Translations under genes and position numbers: made by a program
Notes under the pieces: model-generated
Told to the model about the DNA's origin: nothing
The model's input: only the letters and a program-made list of their open reading frames with translations
Databases searched by the model: none
In this document: one piece after another, positions 49,652-61,850 of the stretch
How the letters are laid out: the number at the start of each line of letters is the position of its first letter
How positions within the stretch are numbered: position 1 is the stretch's first letter
DNA from: a phage
Direction: 5' to 3' (one strand)
Assembly (NCBI GenBank): GCA_027468165.1
Contig: GCA_027468165.1_3951.1
DNA: 64,000 nucleotides

Positions 49652-50533
49652 ATGAAAACATCTATCCGTGTTACAGTTCATTCACCAACTAAAGGGACTC
49701 ATGAAGAAGAATTTAACATCATCCAATTCCCTTCTGGTGAGATTGGTGGACACTTTTCACCAGAGTTTGTTGATTTTACTGCATATGCAGCATCATCTAT
49801 CAACAATGTGATTATGATTGTAAAAGGTTATGATAAAGATACATTGTTTGCTGTGGCACTTGCTAAAGAGGCTGTGGACAACTTAGTACCTCATAAGTTT
49901 GCTATGAAGACTGTTATCTTTTACTATTTACCAAATGCACGTTATGACCGTCACATGTTTAAAGGTGATGCAGCAGCTTTGAAAGTGTTTGCACAACAGG
50001 TTAATGCAATGGGTTTTGATGCAGTCTGTGCAGTTGACCCTCACAGCTATGTGCCAGATAACCTGTTTAACTGCTTCCAGAGCATTCCTCAAAAGGAAAT
50101 TGCAGTCCACTATGCAAATGACCCACTGGTTGATTACTTAGTAGCCCCAGATGCAGGTGCTTCTAAGAAGATTGCAGAAACTGCTAAAGAAGTGGATAAA
50201 CCATACATCACAATGTCTAAAGTACGTAACCTTAAGACTGGTGAAATTACTGGTATGCGAATCCTTGATGATGTTGATTTGACAGATAAAACCGTCATGA
50301 TTCTGGATGATATCTGTGATGGAGGTCGTACCTTTATAGAAGCAGCTAAACATCTTCGCGAAGCAGGTGCAAAACGTGTGGAACTCTATGTAACACATGG
50401 TATCTTCTCTAAAGGTGTTGAAAACCTTCTTGACAATGGTATTGACCATATCTACACTACAAACTCTTTAGGGGAAGCTAAAGACCGTGGTTTAGCACAT
50501 TATAGCCAAGTTACTGTAGCAAACCTTGATTGA
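49652..50533 (+). CDS. prs: Ribose-phosphate pyrophosphokinase family protein (Prs-like; possibly NARP1 ADP-ribose pyrophosphokinase)
   Basis: PRPP-binding-type motif VMILDDICDGGRT; directly upstream of a NadV-like gene. Confidence 0.65.
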   Translation: MKTSIRVTVHSPTKGTHEEEFNIIQFPSGEIGGHFSPEFVDFTAYAASSINNVIMIVKGYDKDTLFAVALAKEAVDNLVPHKFAMKTVIFYYLPNARYDRHMFKGDAAALKVFAQQVNAMGFDAVCAVDPHSYVPDNLFNCFQSIPQKEIAVHYANDPLVDYLVAPDAGASKKIAETAKEVDKPYITMSKVRNLKTGEITGMRILDDVDLTDKTVMILDDICDGGRTFIEAAKHLREAGAKRVELYVTHGIFSKGVENLLDNGIDHIYTTNSLGEAKDRGLAHYSQVTVANLD

Positions 50534-50544
50534 AACTTTATAGG

Positions 50545-50565
50545 GGGGCTTCAAAGCCCCATTTT
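50545..50565 (+). terminator. Hairpin/weak terminator
   Basis: GGGGCTT-CAA-AGCCCC hairpin followed by ATTTTG. Confidence 0.35.
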
Positions 50566-50581
50566 GAGAGAGATTAAAAAG

Positions 50582-52363
50582 ATGACTAAATCACTTTATG
50601 CAGTACCAGCAGGTTTAAACGCGGACGCTTACAAATCTGGCCATGTTTACCAATACCCTAGTGCAACAGATTACTTGATGTTCAACCTGACACCACGTAG
50701 TGATAAATGGTTTAATAGTCCTTTAGCAATTGATGGTGTAGTGGCTTTTGGTATTCAACGTTTTGTTAAAGATTACTTGATAGACCACTGGAACGCCACT
50801 TTCTTTGAACGTGATAAAAAAGAAGCAATTGACGAAATCTTAGAAGTCATGAATGGTGTTCTGGGTAAAGATGCTATCGGTCGAGAGCATTGGGAAGCAC
50901 TTCACGACTTAGGTTATCTACCAGTTGAAGTATACGCTGTAGAAGAAGGTACAGTTGTACCTATGCGTGTTCCAATGATTGTATTCCAGAACACTGTTTC
51001 AGGTTTCCATTGGGTAGCGGGATATCTGGAAGATGCTTTCTCTGCTGAGATTTGGAAGGCTTGTACCATTGCAACTATTGCATTGCACTACAAACGTATC
51101 TGTAAGAAGTGGGCTGACCTCACTTGCAACAATGACTCACATTTGCCTTATCAGTGCCATGACTTTGCTATGCGTGGTATGTCTGGCTTTACTGATGACG
51201 CATTTAACGCTGTAGGTCACTTAACAAGCTTTAAAGGGACTGATAGCTTCCCTGCGGTATATACAGCTAAACGCATTTATGGACAGTCATACCCAATCTC
51301 TGATATTGGTAGCTCTGTACCAGCCACTGAACACTCTGTCATGTGTGCAAACATTGCTTGGGAAGGTGGTAATGAGTTGATTGAAGAAGAAAGACGCTTT
51401 AAAGGTGAGTTGCAAACCTTCCGTCGTTTCTTAACAGAAACTTACCCAACTGGTATTGCAAGTGTTGTTTCAGACACTTATAATTTCTGGAGAACTGTAT
51501 CAGAAATCTTACCAGCACTTCGTAAAGAGATTATGGAACGTGACGGAAAACTGGTAATTCGTCCTGACTCTGGCGACCCTGTACATATTGTCACAGGTTA
51601 TAAAGCAATCCACTTAGAGTGCGCTAAAAAAGCTTATTACGAACACCTAAGCAAGCTGGAAGCCAGCGACACAAAGTTGAATGCTGTTCTGAACATGAAT
51701 CTTGAAGACATTCACTATATTATGGCTGGGTGGTTACGTACAGAAGGCTATGAAATGGTGGTTGACAGAGAAGACTTTGAAGTAGCTGATACAGTGCTTC
51801 TGAAAGATGCCTACATCAACGGCTCTGCAAACGTTGTAACACGTCCTGTAGCAGAGATTGATGGAGCTATTAAGACCCTGTATAACATCTTTGGGGGGAC
51901 TATCAACTCTAAAGGCTTTAAGGTACTGGATGAGCACATTGGCCTTATCTATGGTGACTCTATCACGTTGGAACGTGCAAACGAAATCCTGAAGCGTTTG
52001 TATGAAATGGGTTTTGCAAGCTCTAACGTAGTGTTTGGTGTAGGTTCTTACACTTACCAGTACATGACTCGTGACACCTTTGCATTTGCTGTCAAAGCAA
52101 CTCTTGCAAGCATTGGTGGTAAAGAGATTATGCTTGCAAAAGACCCTAAAACAGATAGCGGTGTTAAGAAGTCTGCTTTTGGTGGTGTAGCACCTATGTG
52201 GGATGGTGATAAGCTGAAAGCTGTAGATGGCTATGGATTCCAGAGCTTTGCAGATGTGCTTGAACATCCAGCTTGTGCTTTACGTTTAGTCTTTAGTGAC
52301 TCTGAGCAGTTCGGTTACACAACTCTTGGTGATATTCGAAATAATATTGACAAGCAGCTTTAA
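50582..52363 (+). CDS. nadV: Nicotinamide phosphoribosyltransferase family protein (NadV/NAMPT-like; possibly NARP1 Namat)
   Basis: About 594 aa ORF paired with the Prs-like gene; assignment rests on size, pairing and general NAMPT-like character, not a verified alignment. Confidence 0.55.
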   Translation: MTKSLYAVPAGLNADAYKSGHVYQYPSATDYLMFNLTPRSDKWFNSPLAIDGVVAFGIQRFVKDYLIDHWNATFFERDKKEAIDEILEVMNGVLGKDAIGREHWEALHDLGYLPVEVYAVEEGTVVPMRVPMIVFQNTVSGFHWVAGYLEDAFSAEIWKACTIATIALHYKRICKKWADLTCNNDSHLPYQCHDFAMRGMSGFTDDAFNAVGHLTSFKGTDSFPAVYTAKRIYGQSYPISDIGSSVPATEHSVMCANIAWEGGNELIEEERRFKGELQTFRRFLTETYPTGIASVVSDTYNFWRTVSEILPALRKEIMERDGKLVIRPDSGDPVHIVTGYKAIHLECAKKAYYEHLSKLEASDTKLNAVLNMNLEDIHYIMAGWLRTEGYEMVVDREDFEVADTVLLKDAYINGSANVVTRPVAEIDGAIKTLYNIFGGTINSKGFKVLDEHIGLIYGDSITLERANEILKRLYEMGFASSNVVFGVGSYTYQYMTRDTFAFAVKATLASIGGKEIMLAKDPKTDSGVKKSAFGGVAPMWDGDKLKAVDGYGFQSFADVLEHPACALRLVFSDSEQFGYTTLGDIRNNIDKQL

Positions 52364-56594: not shown

Positions 56595-57146
56595 ATGAAG
56601 AAGTTGATTCTAGGTTTGTGCTTAATGTTTACAGCACACTTATCTTATGCAGTTGACTGCCCAGAGCTATCAATTAGTCAAAAAGTAAACATGTTAAAAG
56701 CTTACCAGTATGGTGAGAATAATATGGGTAAAGGATGGGGCATCACTCTAGCTGCTATAGCCTTACAAGAGTCAGAGTTAGGTCTGAATATGGAGAATAA
56801 AAAGACCCATGACTATGGTATCTTCCAGAATCACTTGAAGACTGTTGTAAAGCGTAACAAAATCAGCCCTAATGTGGCTAAAAAGAAACTCTTAAAAGAT
56901 TTTAACTATGCTGCAAAGGAAACACACAAAGAGCTTGAGTTTTGGACGAAGGTACATGGTCAACCAAAATCAAAGAAGACTTTACAAAAAGTTTTAGCGT
57001 CATATAATGCTGGGTATTCGTACAAAATCCCTAAAGCTAAGAAATATTCTCAGGATGTCTATAACAATATGAAAGTCATCGCTCAATGTGAATTTGCAAC
57101 AAACATTTCTAAGGTAAATCATGAAAAAATTAAGAAAGTTGGATGA
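56595..57146 (+). CDS. Secreted lytic transglycosylase-like protein (SLT domain; candidate endolysin)
   Basis: Signal peptide MKKLILGLCLMFTAHLSYA; SLT-like ES...DYGIFQ and SYNAG motifs. Confidence 0.5.
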   Translation: MKKLILGLCLMFTAHLSYAVDCPELSISQKVNMLKAYQYGENNMGKGWGITLAAIALQESELGLNMENKKTHDYGIFQNHLKTVVKRNKISPNVAKKKLLKDFNYAAKETHKELEFWTKVHGQPKSKKTLQKVLASYNAGYSYKIPKAKKYSQDVYNNMKVIAQCEFATNISKVNHEKIKKVG

Positions 57147-57816
57147 AGTACTGTGCCATGCTTACGACTTGCATCCTCATGAGTTAGGTCTTGATTCCTG
57201 TGTATGGACTCCAGAACAGTGCAGAGATTTTGAAGATACTGCAAGAGAAGTTGTATGCTCACTTGAAGAGTTCCACACATCAGAACCAATTGTGAACGTT
57301 GTGGACAAAGAGACTGGACAATCTATAGGTGTAAGACGTGACAGTTTAGTCATAGTCAATAAAGACCTTGTAGAAAAAGGTAACCTCATCTTAGCAGATA
57401 TTGATGGTGTTCTTACAAATTTTAATCACGAAGATTGCTCAACGGAATTGACTGATGGGTCATTCTCACAGTACACTAATCTTCTTGACTCTGTAAGAGC
57501 AAAACCAACGTATGTTTTTAGTATTATTGATGCAATTGCTAATCATGCTGCCATTGGACTCTTGACAGCAAGAGGTGAGTCTCAGAGAATACCTACTGAG
57601 ATGTTTTTAAGGCATAACATAGAGCATGACTACATGCTTCTTATGCGTGGTTTTGGAACTAACTCTATAAGTGCAGAAAGTTTAAAAGTTAGGATGATTC
57701 AGTCTTGCATTCTTCCTTACTTTAATATAGTATGCTTTATAGAAGATACAGAGAAGAATGTTCAGAAGGTAAACAGAATCCTTCCACACATTAAAACCAT
57801 GTTAGTTAAACATTGA
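57121..57816 (+). CDS. HAD-superfamily hydrolase-like protein (putative phosphatase/nucleotidase)
   Basis: HAD motif I-like LADIDGVLTNF. Confidence 0.4.
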   Translation: MKKLRKLDEVLCHAYDLHPHELGLDSCVWTPEQCRDFEDTAREVVCSLEEFHTSEPIVNVVDKETGQSIGVRRDSLVIVNKDLVEKGNLILADIDGVLTNFNHEDCSTELTDGSFSQYTNLLDSVRAKPTYVFSIIDAIANHAAIGLLTARGESQRIPTEMFLRHNIEHDYMLLMRGFGTNSISAESLKVRMIQSCILPYFNIVCFIEDTEKNVQKVNRILPHIKTMLVKH

Positions 57817-59120: not shown

Positions 59121-59431
59121 TTATGCAATTCCAGCCAACAAATCGTGGATTTTCTTATGCAGAATTTAAAGATGCTAAAGGAGAGATTTGTACTTTACAA
59201 GAAAGTTCATCATATGAACCATGTATCTGGTTAGGTGCTAAAGAGGTCTCTGTTCAGTACCTAGATGGTGGCTGGAAAACACTTGATATCCCAGCATTAG
59301 TAGGCAAAGATTTTGTAGGTAACCAAAGAATGAAACTCAACCAAGAACAGGTGAAAGAGTTGTTACCGTACCTTCAGTACTTTGCTGAAAATGGTGAATT
59401 ACCAACAGAGGAACTTACAAATGCAGATTAA
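59117..59431 (+). CDS. Hypothetical protein
   Basis: 104 aa coupled ORF. Confidence 0.3.
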   Translation: MIMQFQPTNRGFSYAEFKDAKGEICTLQESSSYEPCIWLGAKEVSVQYLDGGWKTLDIPALVGKDFVGNQRMKLNQEQVKELLPYLQYFAENGELPTEELTNAD

Positions 59432-59744
59432 TGGAAGAGACTTTGTAGCTGTTTACTACGAGAAAGATAAAGAAGTTGGCGTAGCACAAGTATCTTATGG
59501 TAATGGTAAGTGGTTGTATGGAACAATCGCAGTAGTCGGAACAAGGAGTGATACAAAAACTTTTAAAGATTGTGTTGACCTTCTTGAAGAATCCATCCAC
59601 AATCATTGGTGTCTGATATGGATGACTGACAACGAAGTGATAGCACGCTTCAAAAAGATTGGTATCAACATTGATAGCATTGAGCATGTTGATTTGTATG
59701 AGCTAACTGAGAAGGTAAACTATGAAAGCTCTAGAGGTAGTTGA
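59421..59744 (+). CDS. Hypothetical protein
   Basis: ATG after GAGGA RBS. Confidence 0.3.
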   Translation: MQINGRDFVAVYYEKDKEVGVAQVSYGNGKWLYGTIAVVGTRSDTKTFKDCVDLLEESIHNHWCLIWMTDNEVIARFKKIGINIDSIEHVDLYELTEKVNYESSRGS

Positions 59745-59949
59745 CAAAGACACTGGAGAAGTCATATCTGCATGTGTTTTCATAAGCGATGACACAGTGA
59801 TACCATTTTACAACCTTGATGGTTTTAGTTTTACAGGGATAACTCCAGAAGAATACTTTGAAGACCTTACCTTTGCCAGAATCTCTATAGATACATTCTA
59901 TAAATGTTTCTATGATGAAGGTAAAGAGTTACGAGAAACTGAACTATAA
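59722..59949 (+). CDS. Hypothetical protein
   Basis: 75 aa ORF. Confidence 0.3.
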   Translation: MKALEVVDKDTGEVISACVFISDDTVIPFYNLDGFSFTGITPEEYFEDLTFARISIDTFYKCFYDEGKELRETEL

Positions 59950-59960
59950 GGCTTATATTT

Positions 59961-60161
59961 ATGGCTGACTTCTGCAAAGATTGTGCTATCGAAATGTTCG
60001 GACGTGATACAGGAGACTTAAAAGGTCTTATCACTGAAGATGACTTTAAAGCTGGCTATGCAATGCCAGTAATCTGTGAAGGTTGTGGGTGTATCTGGGT
60101 AGACCACGAAGGACAACGTGTAAAACCTTCAGAAGATAAAGAATCTTGGGAGAGATGTTAA
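59961..60161 (+). CDS. Small zinc-ribbon protein (hypothetical)
   Basis: CKDC ... CEGCGC cysteine pairs. Confidence 0.3.
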   Translation: MADFCKDCAIEMFGRDTGDLKGLITEDDFKAGYAMPVICEGCGCIWVDHEGQRVKPSEDKESWERC

Positions 60162-60947
60162 ATGGGTATTGTAAAAATAATCAATGGGGATATCTTCTCT
60201 GCATTTGATAAAGGTAAGTTTGATATCATTGGTCACGGTTGCAACTGTATGAACTTAATGGGTGCAGGTATCGCTGACAAGATTTCTAAACTTTACCCAA
60301 AAGCATATGAGACTGATACAGAAGTTTATCTGTATGCAGGTGGTATAGGCCACAAACCCTGTGAAAATTTACTAGGTAATTTCTCTGTAGCACGTTTAGA
60401 ACAAGGCCGTATAGCTAACCTTTACACTCAGCTTAAGACTGGTAAAGATGCCCGATACAGTGCTTTAGAGTCATCTTTGAAACAGCTTAACAGATACTGT
60501 GAAGTCAATCAGTTGAAGAAAGTTGGTTTACCTATGGTTGGTGCAGGTATCGGTGGACTAGACCCTCAAGCCGTCACAGTTATCATTAATCAGGTGATGA
60601 AGAGCGTAGATGTTTACCTGTATGTCTACGAGGCAGAGATGTACCACGAGTTACACTCAGGTTGGAATAACTACTGTGAACCAGAATACTTTGCAGGTGT
60701 AGTAGTGTTCACTGATGATGCAGTTACCCTCTTCAGACGAAGAAAAGGTAAGATACATCAAAGTAACCCTCCGGTTGAGAAGATGTCTCTAAGTAACGCT
60801 CTAGTTACCCACCTGTCGAAGAGCAATCACAGAATTGCAGTAACATTTGGCAGTGATGCAGATACATATATCTATGCAAGAACTGATGAGGATGTTAAGG
60901 AAATTTTCTCTTCACAGGAAGTTACCTTCTTAGACGCAAAGAACTAA
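60162..60947 (+). CDS. Macro-domain-like protein (possible ADP-ribose binding/processing)
   Basis: DIIGHGCNCMNLMGAGIADKI resembles the macro-domain glycine-rich motif (cf. VNAAN..L.GGGGV); weak, from memory. Confidence 0.3.
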   Translation: MGIVKIINGDIFSAFDKGKFDIIGHGCNCMNLMGAGIADKISKLYPKAYETDTEVYLYAGGIGHKPCENLLGNFSVARLEQGRIANLYTQLKTGKDARYSALESSLKQLNRYCEVNQLKKVGLPMVGAGIGGLDPQAVTVIINQVMKSVDVYLYVYEAEMYHELHSGWNNYCEPEYFAGVVVFTDDAVTLFRRRKGKIHQSNPPVEKMSLSNALVTHLSKSNHRIAVTFGSDADTYIYARTDEDVKEIFSSQEVTFLDAKN

Positions 60948-61017
60948 GAAACTCTGTAGAATATTCACAATAGACTAAGCCTTTCTTATCTGGTAAATTT
61001 TTCAGGTAAGGAGGGCT

Positions 61018-61200
61018 TTTTCATTTCAGGATTGTGCAGGTAGATTTCTGGACAGAAATCTGTAGAGAGAATTTTGAACTCCAAAGAGAAAATTCATTTT
61101 CAAACTGTGCAGGTAATCTCCAAAGAGCTTTTTCATTTTCAAAACGTGCAGATAAAAATCAGGTCGGGCAAGAAAAATCATTTTAGAATTGTGCAGGTAG
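61018..61200 (+). repeat. Four imperfect direct repeats, core TTCATTTTCAAA-N-TGTGCAGGTA, in a noncoding region
   Basis: Copies near 61018, 61092, 61130 and 61177; also CTCCAAAGAG twice; the 70 aa track ORF here translates the repeats. Confidence 0.6.
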
Positions 61201-61375
61201 GTGAGTGTAGGTGGGAATGTCGCCATTTCTCACAAGGCTACCACATCCGAAAAGAAAAGTCAACAGAAAAATTTGTAGCGGATTGAAAAATAATTCTTGA
61301 TTTGTGTTCTGTTTTGTGGTAGTCGCGTGCGCCCGTTTCATTACATTTTTGCCAAAAATATTTTTAAAATTTTTA

Positions 61376-61404
61376 TTGACTCCTCGAACTGGTTTTTATA
61401 GTAT
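61376..61404 (+). promoter_or_regulatory. Sigma70-like promoter with an AT-rich UP-like element
   Basis: TTGACT, 17 nt spacer, TAGTAT (or TATAGT at 15); preceded by AAAAATATTTTTAAAATTTTTA. Confidence 0.4.
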
Positions 61405-61410
61405 TTGCAT

Positions 61411-61469
61411 CAACGGGGAGGTAATGAACTTCCCCACTAAGTAAAACCCTTAAACTAGGAGATTCAAAA
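61411..61469 (+). repeat. Cassette element X1: hairpin GGGGAGG..CTTCCCC plus conserved leader AAACCCTTAAACTAGGAGATTCAAAAATG
   Basis: Near-identical copy at 63179-63237. Confidence 0.6.
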
Positions 61470-61850
61470 ATGGCATATCGTGCACCTAAATTCATCAATA
61501 AAGACAACTTCCGCAACGCACTGGAAAAATCACTTGATGGGAATTTTACAGGTCAGATTATTGTTGTTCATGCATTCAATTTTAAGTATGATATTAACGG
61601 GAACAGAATCAACCATTACACGGCAACCATGTTAGATGGTACGCTATCAAGTGAAAAAGCTGTACTGAATGCACTTGCTGGACGTGGTAAAAACCTGATA
61701 AAATGCAATAAGAGACGTTATCAGGGCGGCGCATATGGTTATGATGATGCTGTTTATCATCTTGAAAATATGGGCTATTCAGTGGAAAAAGCTGGAGTGT
61801 CTCAAATAATCGGCAGTGACGGCTATGTGACAATATTCAAAATTAACTAA
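61470..61850 (+). CDS. Cassette small protein A (hypothetical)
   Basis: 126 aa ORF starting right at the conserved AGGAGATTCAAAAATG leader. Confidence 0.45.
   Translation: MAYRAPKFINKDNFRNALEKSLDGNFTGQIIVVHAFNFKYDINGNRINHYTATMLDGTLSSEKAVLNALAGRGKNLIKCNKRRYQGGAYGYDDAVYHLENMGYSVEKAGVSQIIGSDGYVTIFKIN

What the first reader, a model, noticed from the sequence alone, without database searches (positions are those of the whole stretch)
60162..60947. Macro-domain-like protein next to the repeat region
DIIGHGCNCMNLMGAGIADKI resembles the glycine-rich ADP-ribose-binding loop of macro domains. In a genome that also encodes a possible NAD+ reconstitution pair, an ADP-ribose-processing enzyme would fit a role in reversing host ADP-ribosylation or handling ADPR from NAD+ cleavage. 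The motif match is weak and made from memory.
Basis: inference. Interest (0 to 1): 0.45.

Follow-up and report, generated by a model that had tools for sequence, protein, structure and literature searches.

The report
Phage macrodomain hydrolase with orphan tail
This gene of a FelixO1-like phage does encode a macro-domain (ADP-ribose-processing) enzyme, related to phage proteins recently shown to undo bacterial ADP-ribose/NAD+-based defences; it is an ordinary member of that family except for an extra C-terminal domain, of unknown role, found only in this phage group.

Summary
The ORF at 60162-60947 (+) is real and encodes 261 aa. Residues 1-157 are a genuine macro domain: Pfam Macro scores above its gathering cut-off, PHROG 335 matches at E=1e-110, and the AlphaFold model matches TARG1, DarG and Poa1p at TM 0.73-0.83.

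The window is a Felixounavirus, the genus in which the NAD+ reconstitution pathway NARP1 was discovered. The macro domain falls in one 100%-bootstrap phage clade with two characterised proteins:
- T4 Tk.4/AdfM, needed to resist DarTG2.
- Vibrio phage Adpp, an ADPR-1''-phosphate phosphatase that feeds NARP1 against aRES.

The protein has the His25/Asn28/Gln90 set, not the catalytic Lys of DarG and TARG1. The same Asn-Gln pair is catalytically essential in SCO6735, which cleaves thymidine-linked ADP-ribose from DNA.

Most likely it is a counter-defence hydrolase that cuts the substituent at C1'' of ADP-ribose. The substrate would be DarT2-modified DNA and/or ADPR-1''P, and the product ADPR feeds the phage's own NARP1, encoded 7.8 kb upstream.

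Residues ~175-261 form a faster-evolving orphan domain with no sequence or fold relatives outside Ounavirinae fusions. Its function is unknown. Overall: a new member of a known kind, moderately interesting.

The parts
60162..60947 (+). Complete gene, 261 codons plus TAA: a two-domain macro protein
   Evidence: ORF list. PHROG 335 'phosphatase' E=1.2e-110 over residues 1-260. 257 phage records contain it at >=80% coverage. Relatives annotate it as 'phosphatase', 'putative macro domain protein' or 'O-acetyl-ADP-ribose deacetylase'.
60162..60632 (+). Macro domain (residues 1-157), ALC1/TARG1/Poa1p-like class, His/Asn/Gln type
   Evidence: Pfam PF01661 above its gathering cut-off. Profile against PDB: TARG1 6e-16, Poa1p 5e-14, DarG 1e-11, SCO6735 3e-11. 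Foldseek TM 0.73-0.83. PADLOC DarG model E=5e-13, macro part only. dN/dS 0.05-0.18.
60222..60284 (+). Contains His25 (60234-60236) and Asn28 (60243-60245).
   Evidence: His25 aligns with Poa1p His23 and Gary Adpp His24, the H24A mutant. Asn28 aligns with PhiKZ AdfM Asn23, whose N23A mutant has reduced activity, and with the DarG Asn. H25 and N28 are invariant in alignments A1 and A2.
60417..60431 (+). N-L-Y-T-Q (residues 86-90). Gln90 (60429-60431) occupies the position of the catalytic Lys of DarG (K80) and TARG1 (K84).
   Evidence: Alignments A3: window, T4 Tk.4 and Adpp have Q; DarG, PhiKZ AdfM and TARG1 have K. SCO6735 has an essential Gln85 at the same position, positioned by Asn27.
60525..60563 (+). 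Loop 2 (residues 122-134, GLPMVGAGIGGLD), the second glycine-rich diphosphate-binding loop
   Evidence: P124, G127 and G129 are invariant. The loop aligns with the TARG1 P-R-I-G-C-G-L-D and DarG P-P-L-G-x-G-N-G-G loops. TARG1 Asp125 corresponds to Gly131 here.
60633..60683 (+). Helix and low-confidence linker (residues 158-174)
   Evidence: AlphaFold2: helix 158-165, pLDDT below 50 at residues 167-173. Length varies between homologs.
60684..60944 (+). C-terminal orphan domain (residues ~175-261), beta-rich (six strands and two helices in the model), function unknown
   Evidence: - Exhaustive phmmer against 1.84 billion representatives found only 2 clusters, both the same fusion protein.
- A profile search found only the same lineage.
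- No Pfam or PADLOC match.
- dN/dS 0.20-0.55, so it is coding but evolves about 3x faster than the macro part.
- It is replaced by a non-homologous ~100-aa tail in the Erwinia Kolesnikvirus.
60977..61018 (+). Terminator-like hairpin (17-bp stem followed by a T-run), 30 nt after the stop codon. The macro gene appears to end a transcription unit.
   Evidence: the only terminator-like site found in 59300-61600. This is a consensus match only.
49652..52363 (+). NARP1 pair (Adps-like 49652-50533; Namat-like 50564-52363). It is the probable consumer of the ADPR that the macro enzyme would release. Same strand, 7.8 kb upstream.
   Evidence: PHROG 619 E=5e-99 and PHROG 448 E=4e-202. NARP1 was defined on genes 79-80 of Bas63, a Felixounavirus. 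The pair and the macro region occur in the same ~259 phage records and are syntenic in the Erwinia Kolesnikvirus.

Best explanation
The gene encodes a two-domain counter-defence enzyme.

Macro domain (residues 1-157). It binds the ADP-ribose moiety with its two glycine-rich loops. It hydrolyses whatever is attached to C1'' of the distal ribose and releases free ADP-ribose. The chemistry is the lysine-independent, water-mediated type described for SCO6735: Asn28 positions Gln90 against the distal ribose. His25 is also conserved; it is the residue mutated in Adpp (H24A) and Poa1p (H23A).

Two substrates are documented in its clade:
(a) Thymidine-linked ADP-ribose placed on phage single-stranded DNA by DarT2. 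This is the role of T4 Tk.4/AdfM, the closest characterised homolog.
(b) ADPR-1''-phosphate made by RES-type NAD+ phosphorolysis (aRES). This is the role of Adpp.

In either case the product ADPR is the substrate of the phage's own NARP1 (Adps and Namat, 7.8 kb upstream).

My ranking of the main in-vivo substrate: DarT2-modified DNA about 0.45, ADPR-1''P about 0.35, something else about 0.2. There is roughly a 0.4 chance that both documented activities coexist.

Basis of each step:
- Shown here: the fold, the clade membership, the residue set and the genomic co-occurrence with NARP1.
- Taken from the literature on homologs: the activities.
- Inferred: transfer of those activities to this protein, and everything about the C-terminal orphan domain. 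I tentatively regard that domain as a partner-binding or targeting module.
For: - Macro identity: Pfam above its cut-off; PHROG 335 E=1e-110; fold match to TARG1, DarG and Poa1p.
- Clade: in an NJ tree with 200 bootstraps, the window protein, T4 Tk.4 and all NARP1-linked macros including validated Gary Adpp form one clade at 100%. The clade is separate from DarG plus PhiKZ AdfM, also at 100%.
- BLASTP of the macro part: T4 Tk.4 33%/81 bits, JG004 (NARP1-linked) 30%/75 bits, Gary Adpp 27%/52 bits, DarG 27%/42 bits.
- Residues: His25 = Adpp His24 = Poa1p His23. Asn28 = PhiKZ AdfM Asn23 = the DarG Asn. Gln90 sits at the DarG K80/TARG1 K84 position. SCO6735 has an essential Gln85 there, and both N27S and Q85A kill dT-ADPr hydrolysis.
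- Function of homologs: a T4 tk.4 knockout is sensitised to DarTG2. Purified Adpp converts ADPR-1P to ADPR, and the 3-gene operon overcomes aRES.
- Context: NARP1 is present in the window and was validated in congeneric Bas63. NARP1 and the macro gene are syntenic in a divergent Ounavirinae genus. In other lineages the macro gene lies inside or beside NARP1.
- Selection: strong purifying selection on the macro domain, dN/dS 0.05-0.18.
Against: - No activity has been measured for this protein or for any Ounavirinae ortholog.
- The T4 AdfM and Adpp results come from preprints. The T4 evidence is genetic only.
- The gene is about 12 genes from NARP1, not in the operon. No FelixO1-like phage is in the published NARP1-AP list, which only looked within +/-2 genes.
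- Identity to characterised homologs is only 27-33%. Deep nodes inside the clade have bootstrap support below 50%, so the tree cannot assign it to an 'AdfM' or an 'Adpp' subgroup.
- The Erwinia Kolesnikvirus ortholog has Gln in place of His25, so His is not indispensable across the subfamily.
- The equivalence Gln90 = SCO6735 Gln85 rests on transitivity: my alignment to DarG/TARG1 plus the paper's statement. It is not a direct alignment.
- The extra C-terminal domain is unexplained.
Confidence: 0.7

Rival explanations
1. Pure NARP1 accessory (Adpp acting in trans). Its only relevant activity is dephosphorylating ADPR-1''P made by aRES/RES NADases, so that Adps and Namat can rebuild NAD+. It has no role on DNA.
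For: - It is in the same clade as validated Adpp, and the His that was mutated in Adpp is conserved.
- Poa1p is the second-closest solved relative and shares the H-x-C-N-C motif.
- NARP1 is present and co-conserved with the macro gene throughout the Ounavirinae examined.
- aRES homologs occur in Escherichia and Salmonella (Table S2 counts).
Against: - The gene is not in the NARP1 operon.
- It is closer to T4 Tk.4, and T4 has no annotated NARP1 yet needs Tk.4 against DarTG2.
- A small-molecule phosphatase gives no reason for an extra, fast-evolving domain.
- The Kolesnikvirus ortholog lacks the His.
Confidence: 0.25
2. Pure orphan antitoxin (AdfM-type). It only reverses DarT2 thymidine ADP-ribosylation of phage DNA, and the co-occurrence with NARP1 is coincidental.
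For: - The closest characterised homolog is T4 Tk.4/AdfM.
- It has the same HGCNC / NLYTQ motif variants as T4.
- The Asn/Gln pair is proven for dT-ADPr hydrolysis in SCO6735.
- It hits the PADLOC DarG model.
Against: - The DarG catalytic Lys is absent.
- There is no biochemistry for T4 Tk.4.
- Tk.4-type and NARP1-adjacent members interleave: Acinetobacter phiAbaA1 groups with Octan Tk.4 at 92%. This argues against a clean functional split.
- Macro domains are commonly promiscuous, as the Adpp paper's discussion of viral macro domains notes.
Confidence: 0.25
3. It acts on another ADP-ribose conjugate. Candidates are Thoeris-type cyclic ADPR signals, ADP-ribosylated RNA or protein, O-acetyl-ADPR, or the Appr-1''p by-product of RNA repair. 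A PNK-like gene lies 2.3 kb upstream.
For: - Comparative genomics predicts that phage macro domains mainly target soluble ADPr derivatives.
- Some records annotate the gene as O-acetyl-ADP-ribose deacetylase.
- A PNK-like gene lies at 57121-57816.
- SCO6735 and TARG1 also de-MARylate proteins.
Against: - No member of this phage clade has been shown to do any of these.
- The window shows no Tpt1/KptA-type context: Pfam scans of the neighbouring ORFs are empty.
- The annotation names were assigned by similarity only.
Confidence: 0.12
4. It is a non-catalytic ADP-ribose binder (reader or sponge), not a hydrolase.
For: It lacks the TARG1 Lys/Asp dyad and the DarG Lys. Some ALC1-like macro domains are binders only.
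Against: The Asn and Gln needed for the lysine-independent mechanism, and the His, are invariant across the family alignment. Clade members are demonstrably enzymes. A sponge would not need these residues conserved at dN/dS 0.05-0.18.
Confidence: 0.05

Closest known systems
T4 Tk.4 = AdfM (anti-DarT factor, macrodomain; bioRxiv 10.1101/2025.11.20.689424)
   Same: - 33% identity over the whole macro domain.
- Same loop-1 H-G-C-N-C, same N-L-Y-T-Q, same P-x-I-G-A-G-I-G loop 2.
- Same 100%-supported clade.
- Both are stand-alone phage genes with no adjacent toxin gene.
   Different: - T4 Tk.4 is 155 aa, macro domain only. The window protein has an additional ~100-aa C-terminal domain.
- The T4 locus shown has no NARP1 nearby, whereas this phage encodes NARP1.
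- Function in T4 is shown genetically, not biochemically.
Adpp, the NARP1-associated ADPR-1''P phosphatase (Vibrio phage Gary; bioRxiv 10.64898/2026.01.28.702374)
   Same: - Same clade.
- The catalytic His is conserved (Gary H24 = window H25), as are the Asn and the Gln.
- The genome also carries Adps and Namat.
   Different: - 27% identity.
- Motif variants are H-Q-C-N-C and Y-G-Q, against H-G-C-N-C and Y-T-Q here.
- Adpp sits between Adps and Namat, whereas the window gene is about 12 genes downstream.
- Adpp has no C-terminal domain.
SCO6735 of Streptomyces coelicolor (PDB 5E3B; PMC9411070)
   Same: - ALC1-like macro domain with His24, Asn27 and Gln85, matching window His25, Asn28 and Gln90.
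- Lysine-independent mechanism.
- Profile match E=3e-11.
   Different: - It is a bacterial DNA-damage-inducible protein, not a phage protein.
- It has a longer central loop and a single domain.
- The residue equivalence was established here by transitivity only.
DarG antitoxin macrodomain and PhiKZ gp104 'AdfM' (PMC13309987)
   Same: Same fold (TM 0.73-0.75). The catalytic-site Asn is conserved. It hits the PADLOC DarG model at E=5e-13. The likely biological target, DarT2 adducts, is shared.
   Different: - A separate clade at 100% bootstrap.
- DarG and PhiKZ have F-P-T-K with the catalytic Lys, whereas the window has Y-T-Q.
- DarG's C-terminal DarT-binding domain is not matched.
- PhiKZ AdfM scores only 26 bits against the window.
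Yeast Poa1p (PDB 6LFQ), ADP-ribose-1''-phosphate phosphatase
   Same: H-x-C-N-C...G-x-G-I-A loop 1 with the His (H23) that was mutated in deposited structures. Profile E=5e-14. TM 0.73.
   Different: - It is a eukaryotic tRNA-splicing by-product enzyme.
- Poa1p Ser30 corresponds to Leu32 here.
- About 21% identity.
Human TARG1/OARD1 (PDB 4J5S)
   Same: Best overall sequence-profile and structural match (E=6e-16, TM 0.80-0.83). It has the His at the loop-1 position.
   Different: The catalytic dyad Lys84/Asp125 is Gln90/Gly131 here, and TARG1's Ser at the Asn28 position differs.

Membership tests
Macro domain superfamily (Pfam PF01661) | Sequence match above the curated threshold | tested here: met
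   29.6 bits against a gathering cut-off of 22, E=7.4e-7, residues 25-141 covering profile positions 2-117 of 118.
Macro domain superfamily (Pfam PF01661) | Three-layer alpha/beta/alpha macro fold | tested here: met
   AlphaFold2 model, pLDDT 77. Foldseek against PDB gave 239 hits at E<=0.001; all 50 listed are macro domains or designs built on one, and the top TM values are 0.73-0.83.
Macro domain superfamily (Pfam PF01661) | Two glycine-rich ADP-ribose/diphosphate-binding loops | tested here: met
   M33-G-A-G-I-A and P124-x-x-G-A-G-I-G-G are invariant or nearly so across homologs.
ALC1/TARG1-like macro class | Closest to TARG1, DarG, Poa1p and SCO6735, not to MacroD-type domains | tested here: met
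   Profile E-values run from 6e-16 to 3e-11 for TARG1, Poa1p, BT1257, DarG and SCO6735. Alphavirus macro domains score 6e-3 or worse.
TARG1 | Catalytic dyad Lys84/Asp125 | tested here: not met
   Lys84 aligns with Gln90 and Asp125 with Gly131.
DarG (DarTG2 antitoxin) / PhiKZ-type AdfM | Catalytic Lys80 in the F-P-T-K motif | tested here: not met
   The window has Y-T-Q (Gln90). K80A inactivates DarG.
DarG (DarTG2 antitoxin) / PhiKZ-type AdfM | Conserved active-site Asn (PhiKZ N23) | tested here: met
   Asn28 aligns with PhiKZ Asn23 and the DarG Asn.
DarG (DarTG2 antitoxin) / PhiKZ-type AdfM | C-terminal DarT-binding domain and an adjacent darT gene | tested here: not met
   The PADLOC DarG profile is matched only at positions 17-146 of 329, and the C-terminal domain alone has no hit. 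The flanking ORFs have no Pfam family.
Phage Tk.4(AdfM-T4)/Adpp clade (PHROG 335; His/Asn/Gln type) | Family profile match and phylogenetic placement | tested here: met
   PHROG 335 E=1.2e-110. The clade has 100% bootstrap support and includes T4 Tk.4 and Gary Adpp.
Phage Tk.4(AdfM-T4)/Adpp clade (PHROG 335; His/Asn/Gln type) | His (Adpp H24 / Poa1p H23), Asn, and Gln in [Y/H]-[T/G/A/S]-Q | tested here: met
   His25, Asn28 and Gln90 are present and invariant in alignments A1 and A2.
NARP1-AP (Adps-Adpp-Namat operon) | Macro gene within the NARP1 operon (published criterion: +/-2 genes) | tested here: not met
   The macro gene starts 7.8 kb, about 12 genes, downstream of Namat. No Escherichia, Salmonella or Felix phage is in Table S1.
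NARP1-AP (Adps-Adpp-Namat operon) | Adps and Namat encoded by the same genome | tested here: met
   PHROG 619 and PHROG 448 hits at 49652-52363. These are the NARP1 of Felixounavirus Bas63.
NARP1-AP (Adps-Adpp-Namat operon) | ADPR-1''P to ADPR phosphatase activity and an anti-aRES phenotype | not testable with these tools
   Needs an enzyme assay and phage genetics.
AdfM (functional definition) | Removes DarT2 ADP-ribose from DNA and is required for DarTG2 resistance | not testable with these tools
   Needs an enzyme assay and phage genetics. It has been shown only for homologs.
SCO6735-type lysine-independent hydrolases | Asn27-Gln85 pair, with Gln at the position of the catalytic Lys | tested here: met
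   Window Gln90 aligns with DarG K80 and TARG1 K84. The paper places SCO6735 Gln85 at that same position. The H24/N27 spacing equals the H25/N28 spacing here. The equivalence is transitive, not from a direct pairwise alignment.

The most novel reading that the evidence does not exclude
One enzyme bridges two counter-defences. It strips DarT2's ADP-ribose from phage DNA and also dephosphorylates aRES-made ADPR-1''P, and it hands the ADPR to the phage's NARP1. 'NARP1-AP' would then operate in trans in all ~260 FelixO1-like phages and be much commoner than the published 15%.

The orphan, fast-evolving C-terminal domain, which is swapped between genera, would be a second prong. It would bind a host defence protein (as DarG's C-terminal domain binds DarT) or a NARP1 enzyme.
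Probability: 0.25. Interest if true: 0.6.

Novelty: new member of a known kind. Interest (0 to 1): 0.4.

Why it matters
Macro domains are the commonest ADP-ribose-processing domains in phages, but only in 2025-2026 were two of them given functions: T4 Tk.4/AdfM against DarTG2, and Adpp with NARP1 against aRES.

This analysis places the FelixO1-type protein in the same clade as both. It also shows that the clade uses a His/Asn/Gln active site like SCO6735, not the lysine of DarG.

Three concrete predictions follow:
(i) T4 AdfM and Adpp may share both activities.
(ii) FelixO1-like phages, the group in which NARP1 was found and for which genetic tools exist in Bas63, may already run a NARP1-plus-phosphatase pathway with the phosphatase encoded elsewhere in the genome. 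The published +/-2-gene survey would have missed this.
(iii) The name 'AdfM' currently covers two non-orthologous macro clades.

The lineage-specific C-terminal domain is a small, well-defined piece of phage dark matter attached to a known enzyme. That makes its role experimentally approachable.

FelixO1-like phages are used in Salmonella and E. coli typing and biocontrol, so their counter-defence repertoire bears on host range.

Tried and rejected
- Homology between the Felixounavirus and Kolesnikvirus C-terminal tails: rejected (hhalign probability 0.2%).
- Using net charge or pI to separate DNA-acting from small-molecule-acting members: uninformative, since pI ranges from 4.6 to 9.2 within both groups. 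The C-terminal domain is mildly acidic in most homologs, which argues against a generic nucleic-acid-binding tail.
- Using the tree to assign the protein to an 'AdfM' or an 'Adpp' subgroup: not possible. Deep nodes have support below 50% and the two types interleave.
- Looking for an Ounavirinae lineage that keeps the macro gene but lacks NARP1, which would uncouple the two. The Erwinia Kolesnikvirus has both in the same synteny, so the test did not discriminate.
- Checking whether the aRES paper tested a FelixO1-like phage: the text does not say.
- MacroD-type membership: rejected on profile scores.
- Neighbouring small ORFs: no Pfam families.
Full report
**1. The observation**

The window has an ATG-to-TAA ORF of 261 codons at exactly 60162-60947 on the + strand. 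Its ATG directly follows the TAA of the preceding 66-codon ORF and is preceded by GGGAGAG.

The resemblance to macro domains is not a chance match:
- Pfam Macro (PF01661) scores 29.6 bits against a gathering cut-off of 22 (E=7.4e-7, residues 25-141).
- PHROG 335 ('phosphatase') matches residues 1-260 at E=1.2e-110.
- The single sequence already finds TARG1/OARD1, DarG and coronavirus Mac1 structures.
- A profile of 13 homologs finds TARG1 at 6e-16, yeast Poa1p at 5e-14, BT1257 at 3e-12, M. tuberculosis and T. aquaticus DarG at 1-2e-11 and SCO6735 at 3e-11. Alphavirus macro domains are at 6e-3 or worse.

An AlphaFold2 model (mean pLDDT 77) matches TARG1 (TM 0.80-0.83), the DarG macrodomains (0.73-0.75) and Poa1p (0.73) at Foldseek E about 1e-9.

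**2. Where the window comes from and how the gene is distributed**

The region is 92-96% identical to Felixounavirus genomes such as Salmonella phage S19cd and Escherichia phages EC6 and GEP101. In those records the gene is annotated variously as 'phosphatase', 'putative macro domain protein', 'O-acetyl-ADP-ribose deacetylase' or 'hypothetical protein'.

By tblastn, 2,794 phage records encode a relative of the macro part (residues about 3-160). These include T4, Klebsiella, Pseudomonas, Vibrio and Acinetobacter phages. Only 257 records cover at least 80% of the protein. The macro part is therefore widespread, and the last ~100 residues are lineage-specific. The T4 homolog is Tk.4.

**3. Anatomy**

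The model has two domains: a macro domain (strands and helices up to residue 165) and a beta-rich C-terminal domain (about 176-260). They are joined by a linker with pLDDT below 50 at residues 167-173.

In the macro domain three elements are invariant across homologs:
- Loop 1: H25-G-C-N28-C...M-G-A-G-I-A.
- N86-L-Y-T-Q90.
- Loop 2: P124-x-x-G-A-G-I-G-G.

Residue-level comparison gives the following:
- Asn28 aligns with Asn23 of PhiKZ gp104/AdfM and with the DarG Asn. The N23A mutant of PhiKZ AdfM has reduced activity.
- His25 aligns with Poa1p His23. The register was checked against the S30A chain of 6LFT. His25 also aligns with His24 of Vibrio phage Gary Adpp, for which an H24A mutant was made.
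- Gln90 occupies the position of the catalytic Lys of DarG (K80), TARG1 (K84) and PhiKZ AdfM (F-P-T-K).
- TARG1 Asp125 corresponds to Gly131.

The protein therefore fails the defining catalytic feature of both TARG1 and DarG. This is not a sign of inactivity. SCO6735 of Streptomyces coelicolor is an ALC1-like macrodomain that cleaves thymidine-linked ADP-ribose from DNA and neutralises DarT. [quoted passage not shown] Q85A or Q85E abolishes activity. N27S nearly abolishes it, because Asn27 locks Gln85 against the distal ribose. A water-mediated mechanism is proposed (PMC9411070; review PMC9967889). The window protein has the same His-x-x-Asn...Gln set. The equivalence Gln90 = Gln85 is transitive, from my alignment plus the paper's statement, and was not checked by direct superposition.

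**4. Characterised phage relatives**

Two recent studies assign functions to homologs.

(a) T4 tk.4. It was the single hit in a transposon screen on a DarTG2 host, and a clean knockout sensitised T4 to DarTG2. The gene was named adfM (bioRxiv 10.1101/2025.11.20.689424). The evidence is genetic, and removal of ADP-ribose from DNA is assumed.

(b) NARP1-associated macro proteins. In 15% of NARP1 operons a macro protein lies within two genes of Adps/Namat. The one from Vibrio phage Gary (Adpp) converts ADPR-1''-phosphate to ADPR in vitro. ADPR-1''-phosphate is the product of the RES-domain defence aRES, and NARP1 cannot use it. The three-gene operon overcomes aRES, and its closest known homolog is Poa1p (bioRxiv 10.64898/2026.01.28.702374).

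A third protein, PhiKZ gp104, is also called AdfM. It removes DarT2 adducts in vitro (PMC13309987), but it is a close DarG relative (E=1e-24) with the lysine motif.

**5. Placement**

BLASTP of the window's macro domain gives:

| Subject | Identity | Bits |
|---|---|---|
| T4 Tk.4 | 33% | 81 |
| Pseudomonas JG004 (NARP1-linked) | 30% | 75 |
| Gary Adpp | 27% | 52 |
| T. aquaticus DarG | 27% | 42 |
| PhiKZ AdfM | 24% | 26 |

A neighbour-joining tree (148 columns, 200 bootstraps) shows:
- One clade at 100% contains the window protein and other Ounavirinae (83% for the subfamily), the T4-type Tk.4 proteins, and every NARP1-linked macro including Adpp.
- DarG plus PhiKZ AdfM form a separate clade, also at 100%.
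- Inside the phage clade, a NARP1-adjacent Acinetobacter protein (phiAbaA1) groups with an Acinetobacter T4-like Tk.4 (Octan) at 92%. 'AdfM-type' and 'Adpp-type' genes therefore interleave and are not two orthologous groups.
- Deeper nodes have support below 50%.

The window protein shares the H-G-C-N-C / Y-T-Q variants with T4 and the Acinetobacter proteins. Vibrio and Pseudomonas Adpp-type proteins have H-Q-[C/A]-N-C / Y-G-Q.

**6. Genomic context**

- The window encodes an Adps-like (49652-50533, PHROG 619, E=5e-99) and a Namat-like protein (50564-52363, PHROG 448, E=4e-202).
- NARP1 was discovered as genes 79-80 of Bas63/JohannRWettstein, which is a Felixounavirus.
- The macro gene lies 7.8 kb downstream on the same strand. 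Between them are rIIA, rIIB, a PNK-like gene, the spanins and several small ORFs, about 12 genes in all. It is followed by a terminator-like hairpin at 60977-61018.
- It therefore fails the published +/-2-gene criterion for NARP1-AP. Accordingly, no Escherichia, Salmonella or Felix phage is in that paper's Table S1.
- NARP1 and the macro region are found in the same ~259 records with the same organism breakdown. That shows only that both are core genes of the group.
- In the divergent Erwinia Kolesnikvirus (macro domain 40% identical) the same order is kept: NARP1, rIIA-rIIB, PNK, spanin, macro.
- In other lineages the macro gene sits inside or beside NARP1: Vibrio ABurr, between the two genes; Otagovirus psageK4; Bas60 PaulScherrer, next to a phosphoribosyltransferase.

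**7. The C-terminal domain (residues ~175-261)**

- It has no relatives outside the same fusion. Exhaustive phmmer against 1.84 billion representatives returned 2 clusters. A profile search returned only the same lineage, in one contig split by a frameshift at the domain boundary.
- There is no Pfam or PADLOC match, so it is not DarG's DarT-binding domain.
- The stand-alone model has pLDDT 72.5, so the fold should be treated with caution.
- It is real coding sequence under purifying selection, but it evolves about three times faster than the macro domain: dN/dS 0.20 against 0.05 versus GEP101, and 0.55 against 0.18 versus Michonne.
- It is mildly acidic in most homologs.
- The Kolesnikvirus ortholog carries a tail of similar length but no detectable homology (hhalign probability 0.2%).
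- Bas60 has an N-terminal extension and Det7 a shorter C-terminal one.

Variable accessory modules on a conserved enzyme, together with faster evolution, fit a partner-binding or targeting role. That is inference only.

**8. Interpretation**

The chemistry I commit to (about 0.8) is a lysine-independent macro hydrolase that cleaves the substituent at C1'' of ADP-ribose and releases ADPR.

For the biological substrate I rank the options as follows:
- DarT2-modified thymidine in phage DNA: about 0.45. Reasons: the closest characterised homolog, the same motif subtype, and the Asn/Gln mechanism proven on that substrate in SCO6735.
- ADPR-1''P from aRES-type NAD+ phosphorolysis: about 0.35. Reasons: the same clade as Adpp, the His conserved, and NARP1 present in the genome.
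- Something else: about 0.2.
- Both documented activities coexisting: roughly 0.4.
- At least one of the two documented roles: about 0.7.

Either way the product is the substrate of the phage's own NARP1.

Main caveats:
- There are no measurements on any Ounavirinae protein.
- Two of the key papers are preprints.
- Identity to characterised homologs is low.
- The Kolesnikvirus ortholog has Gln in place of His25.

**9. Novelty and score**

The macro-domain identity is already reflected in GenBank annotations, and the family now has characterised members. I therefore file this as a new member of a known kind. The unexplained C-terminal domain and the 'NARP1-AP in trans' possibility are the parts worth an experiment. 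Interest: 0.4.

Noticed in passing
window 61012-61282: An array of 4-5 direct repeats of ~40 nt lies in the 520-nt gap between the macro gene and the next ORF (61470), directly after the terminator-like hairpin. The repeats share the core TTTTCATTTTCAAAnnGTGCAGGTAA. It could be a set of phage promoters or regulator-binding sites.
   Followed up: partly
window 59961-60161: A 66-aa Cys-rich ORF (CxxC...CxxC, zinc-ribbon-like; PHROG 2210; no Pfam match) has its stop codon abutting the macro ATG (TAAATG). A 66-aa gene precedes the macro gene in the same way in L003, L013 and Citrobacter phage Michonne (L009). This suggests translational coupling, and possibly a functional link.
   Followed up: partly
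[not shown]
   Followed up: no
L004 2498-3280 (Erwinia phage vEam_W_25, Kolesnikvirus): The orthologous macro protein is also 260 aa, but its C-terminal ~100 aa shows no detectable homology to the window's. Its loop 1 reads Q-G-C-N-C, with Gln in place of the His that was mutated in Adpp and Poa1p.
   Followed up: partly
L013 291-1069 (Logan ERR2213706 contig): In a relative of P0009, the macro domain (162 aa) and the C-terminal domain (114 aa) are called as two overlapping ORFs. The frameshift falls exactly at the domain boundary. It is either an assembly error or a natural split.
   Followed up: no
L008 34-768 (Escherichia phage PaulScherrer/Bas60); L007 286-891 (Det7): Other lineages add different extensions to the same macro core. 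Bas60 has an ~89-aa N-terminal extension and lies directly after a phosphoribosyltransferase gene. Det7 has a ~50-aa C-terminal extension.
   Followed up: partly
literature and alignment A3, tree: The name 'AdfM' is used for two non-orthologous macro clades. T4 Tk.4 is the His/Asn/Gln type and falls in the same clade as the ADPR-1''P phosphatase Adpp. PhiKZ gp104 is the DarG-like type with the catalytic Lys.
   Followed up: yes
(GU169904 'Staphylococcus phage SA1'; two 'Campylobacter' records): Records labelled as Staphylococcus and Campylobacter phages match this Felixounavirus DNA at about 90% identity. They are probably mislabelled or contaminated database entries.
   Followed up: no
window 57121-57816: A 231-aa protein matches PHROG 3970 'polynucleotide kinase' (E=1.6e-133) but has no Pfam match at E<=0.01. 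It is conserved between NARP1 and the macro gene in both Felixounavirus and Kolesnikvirus.
   Followed up: no
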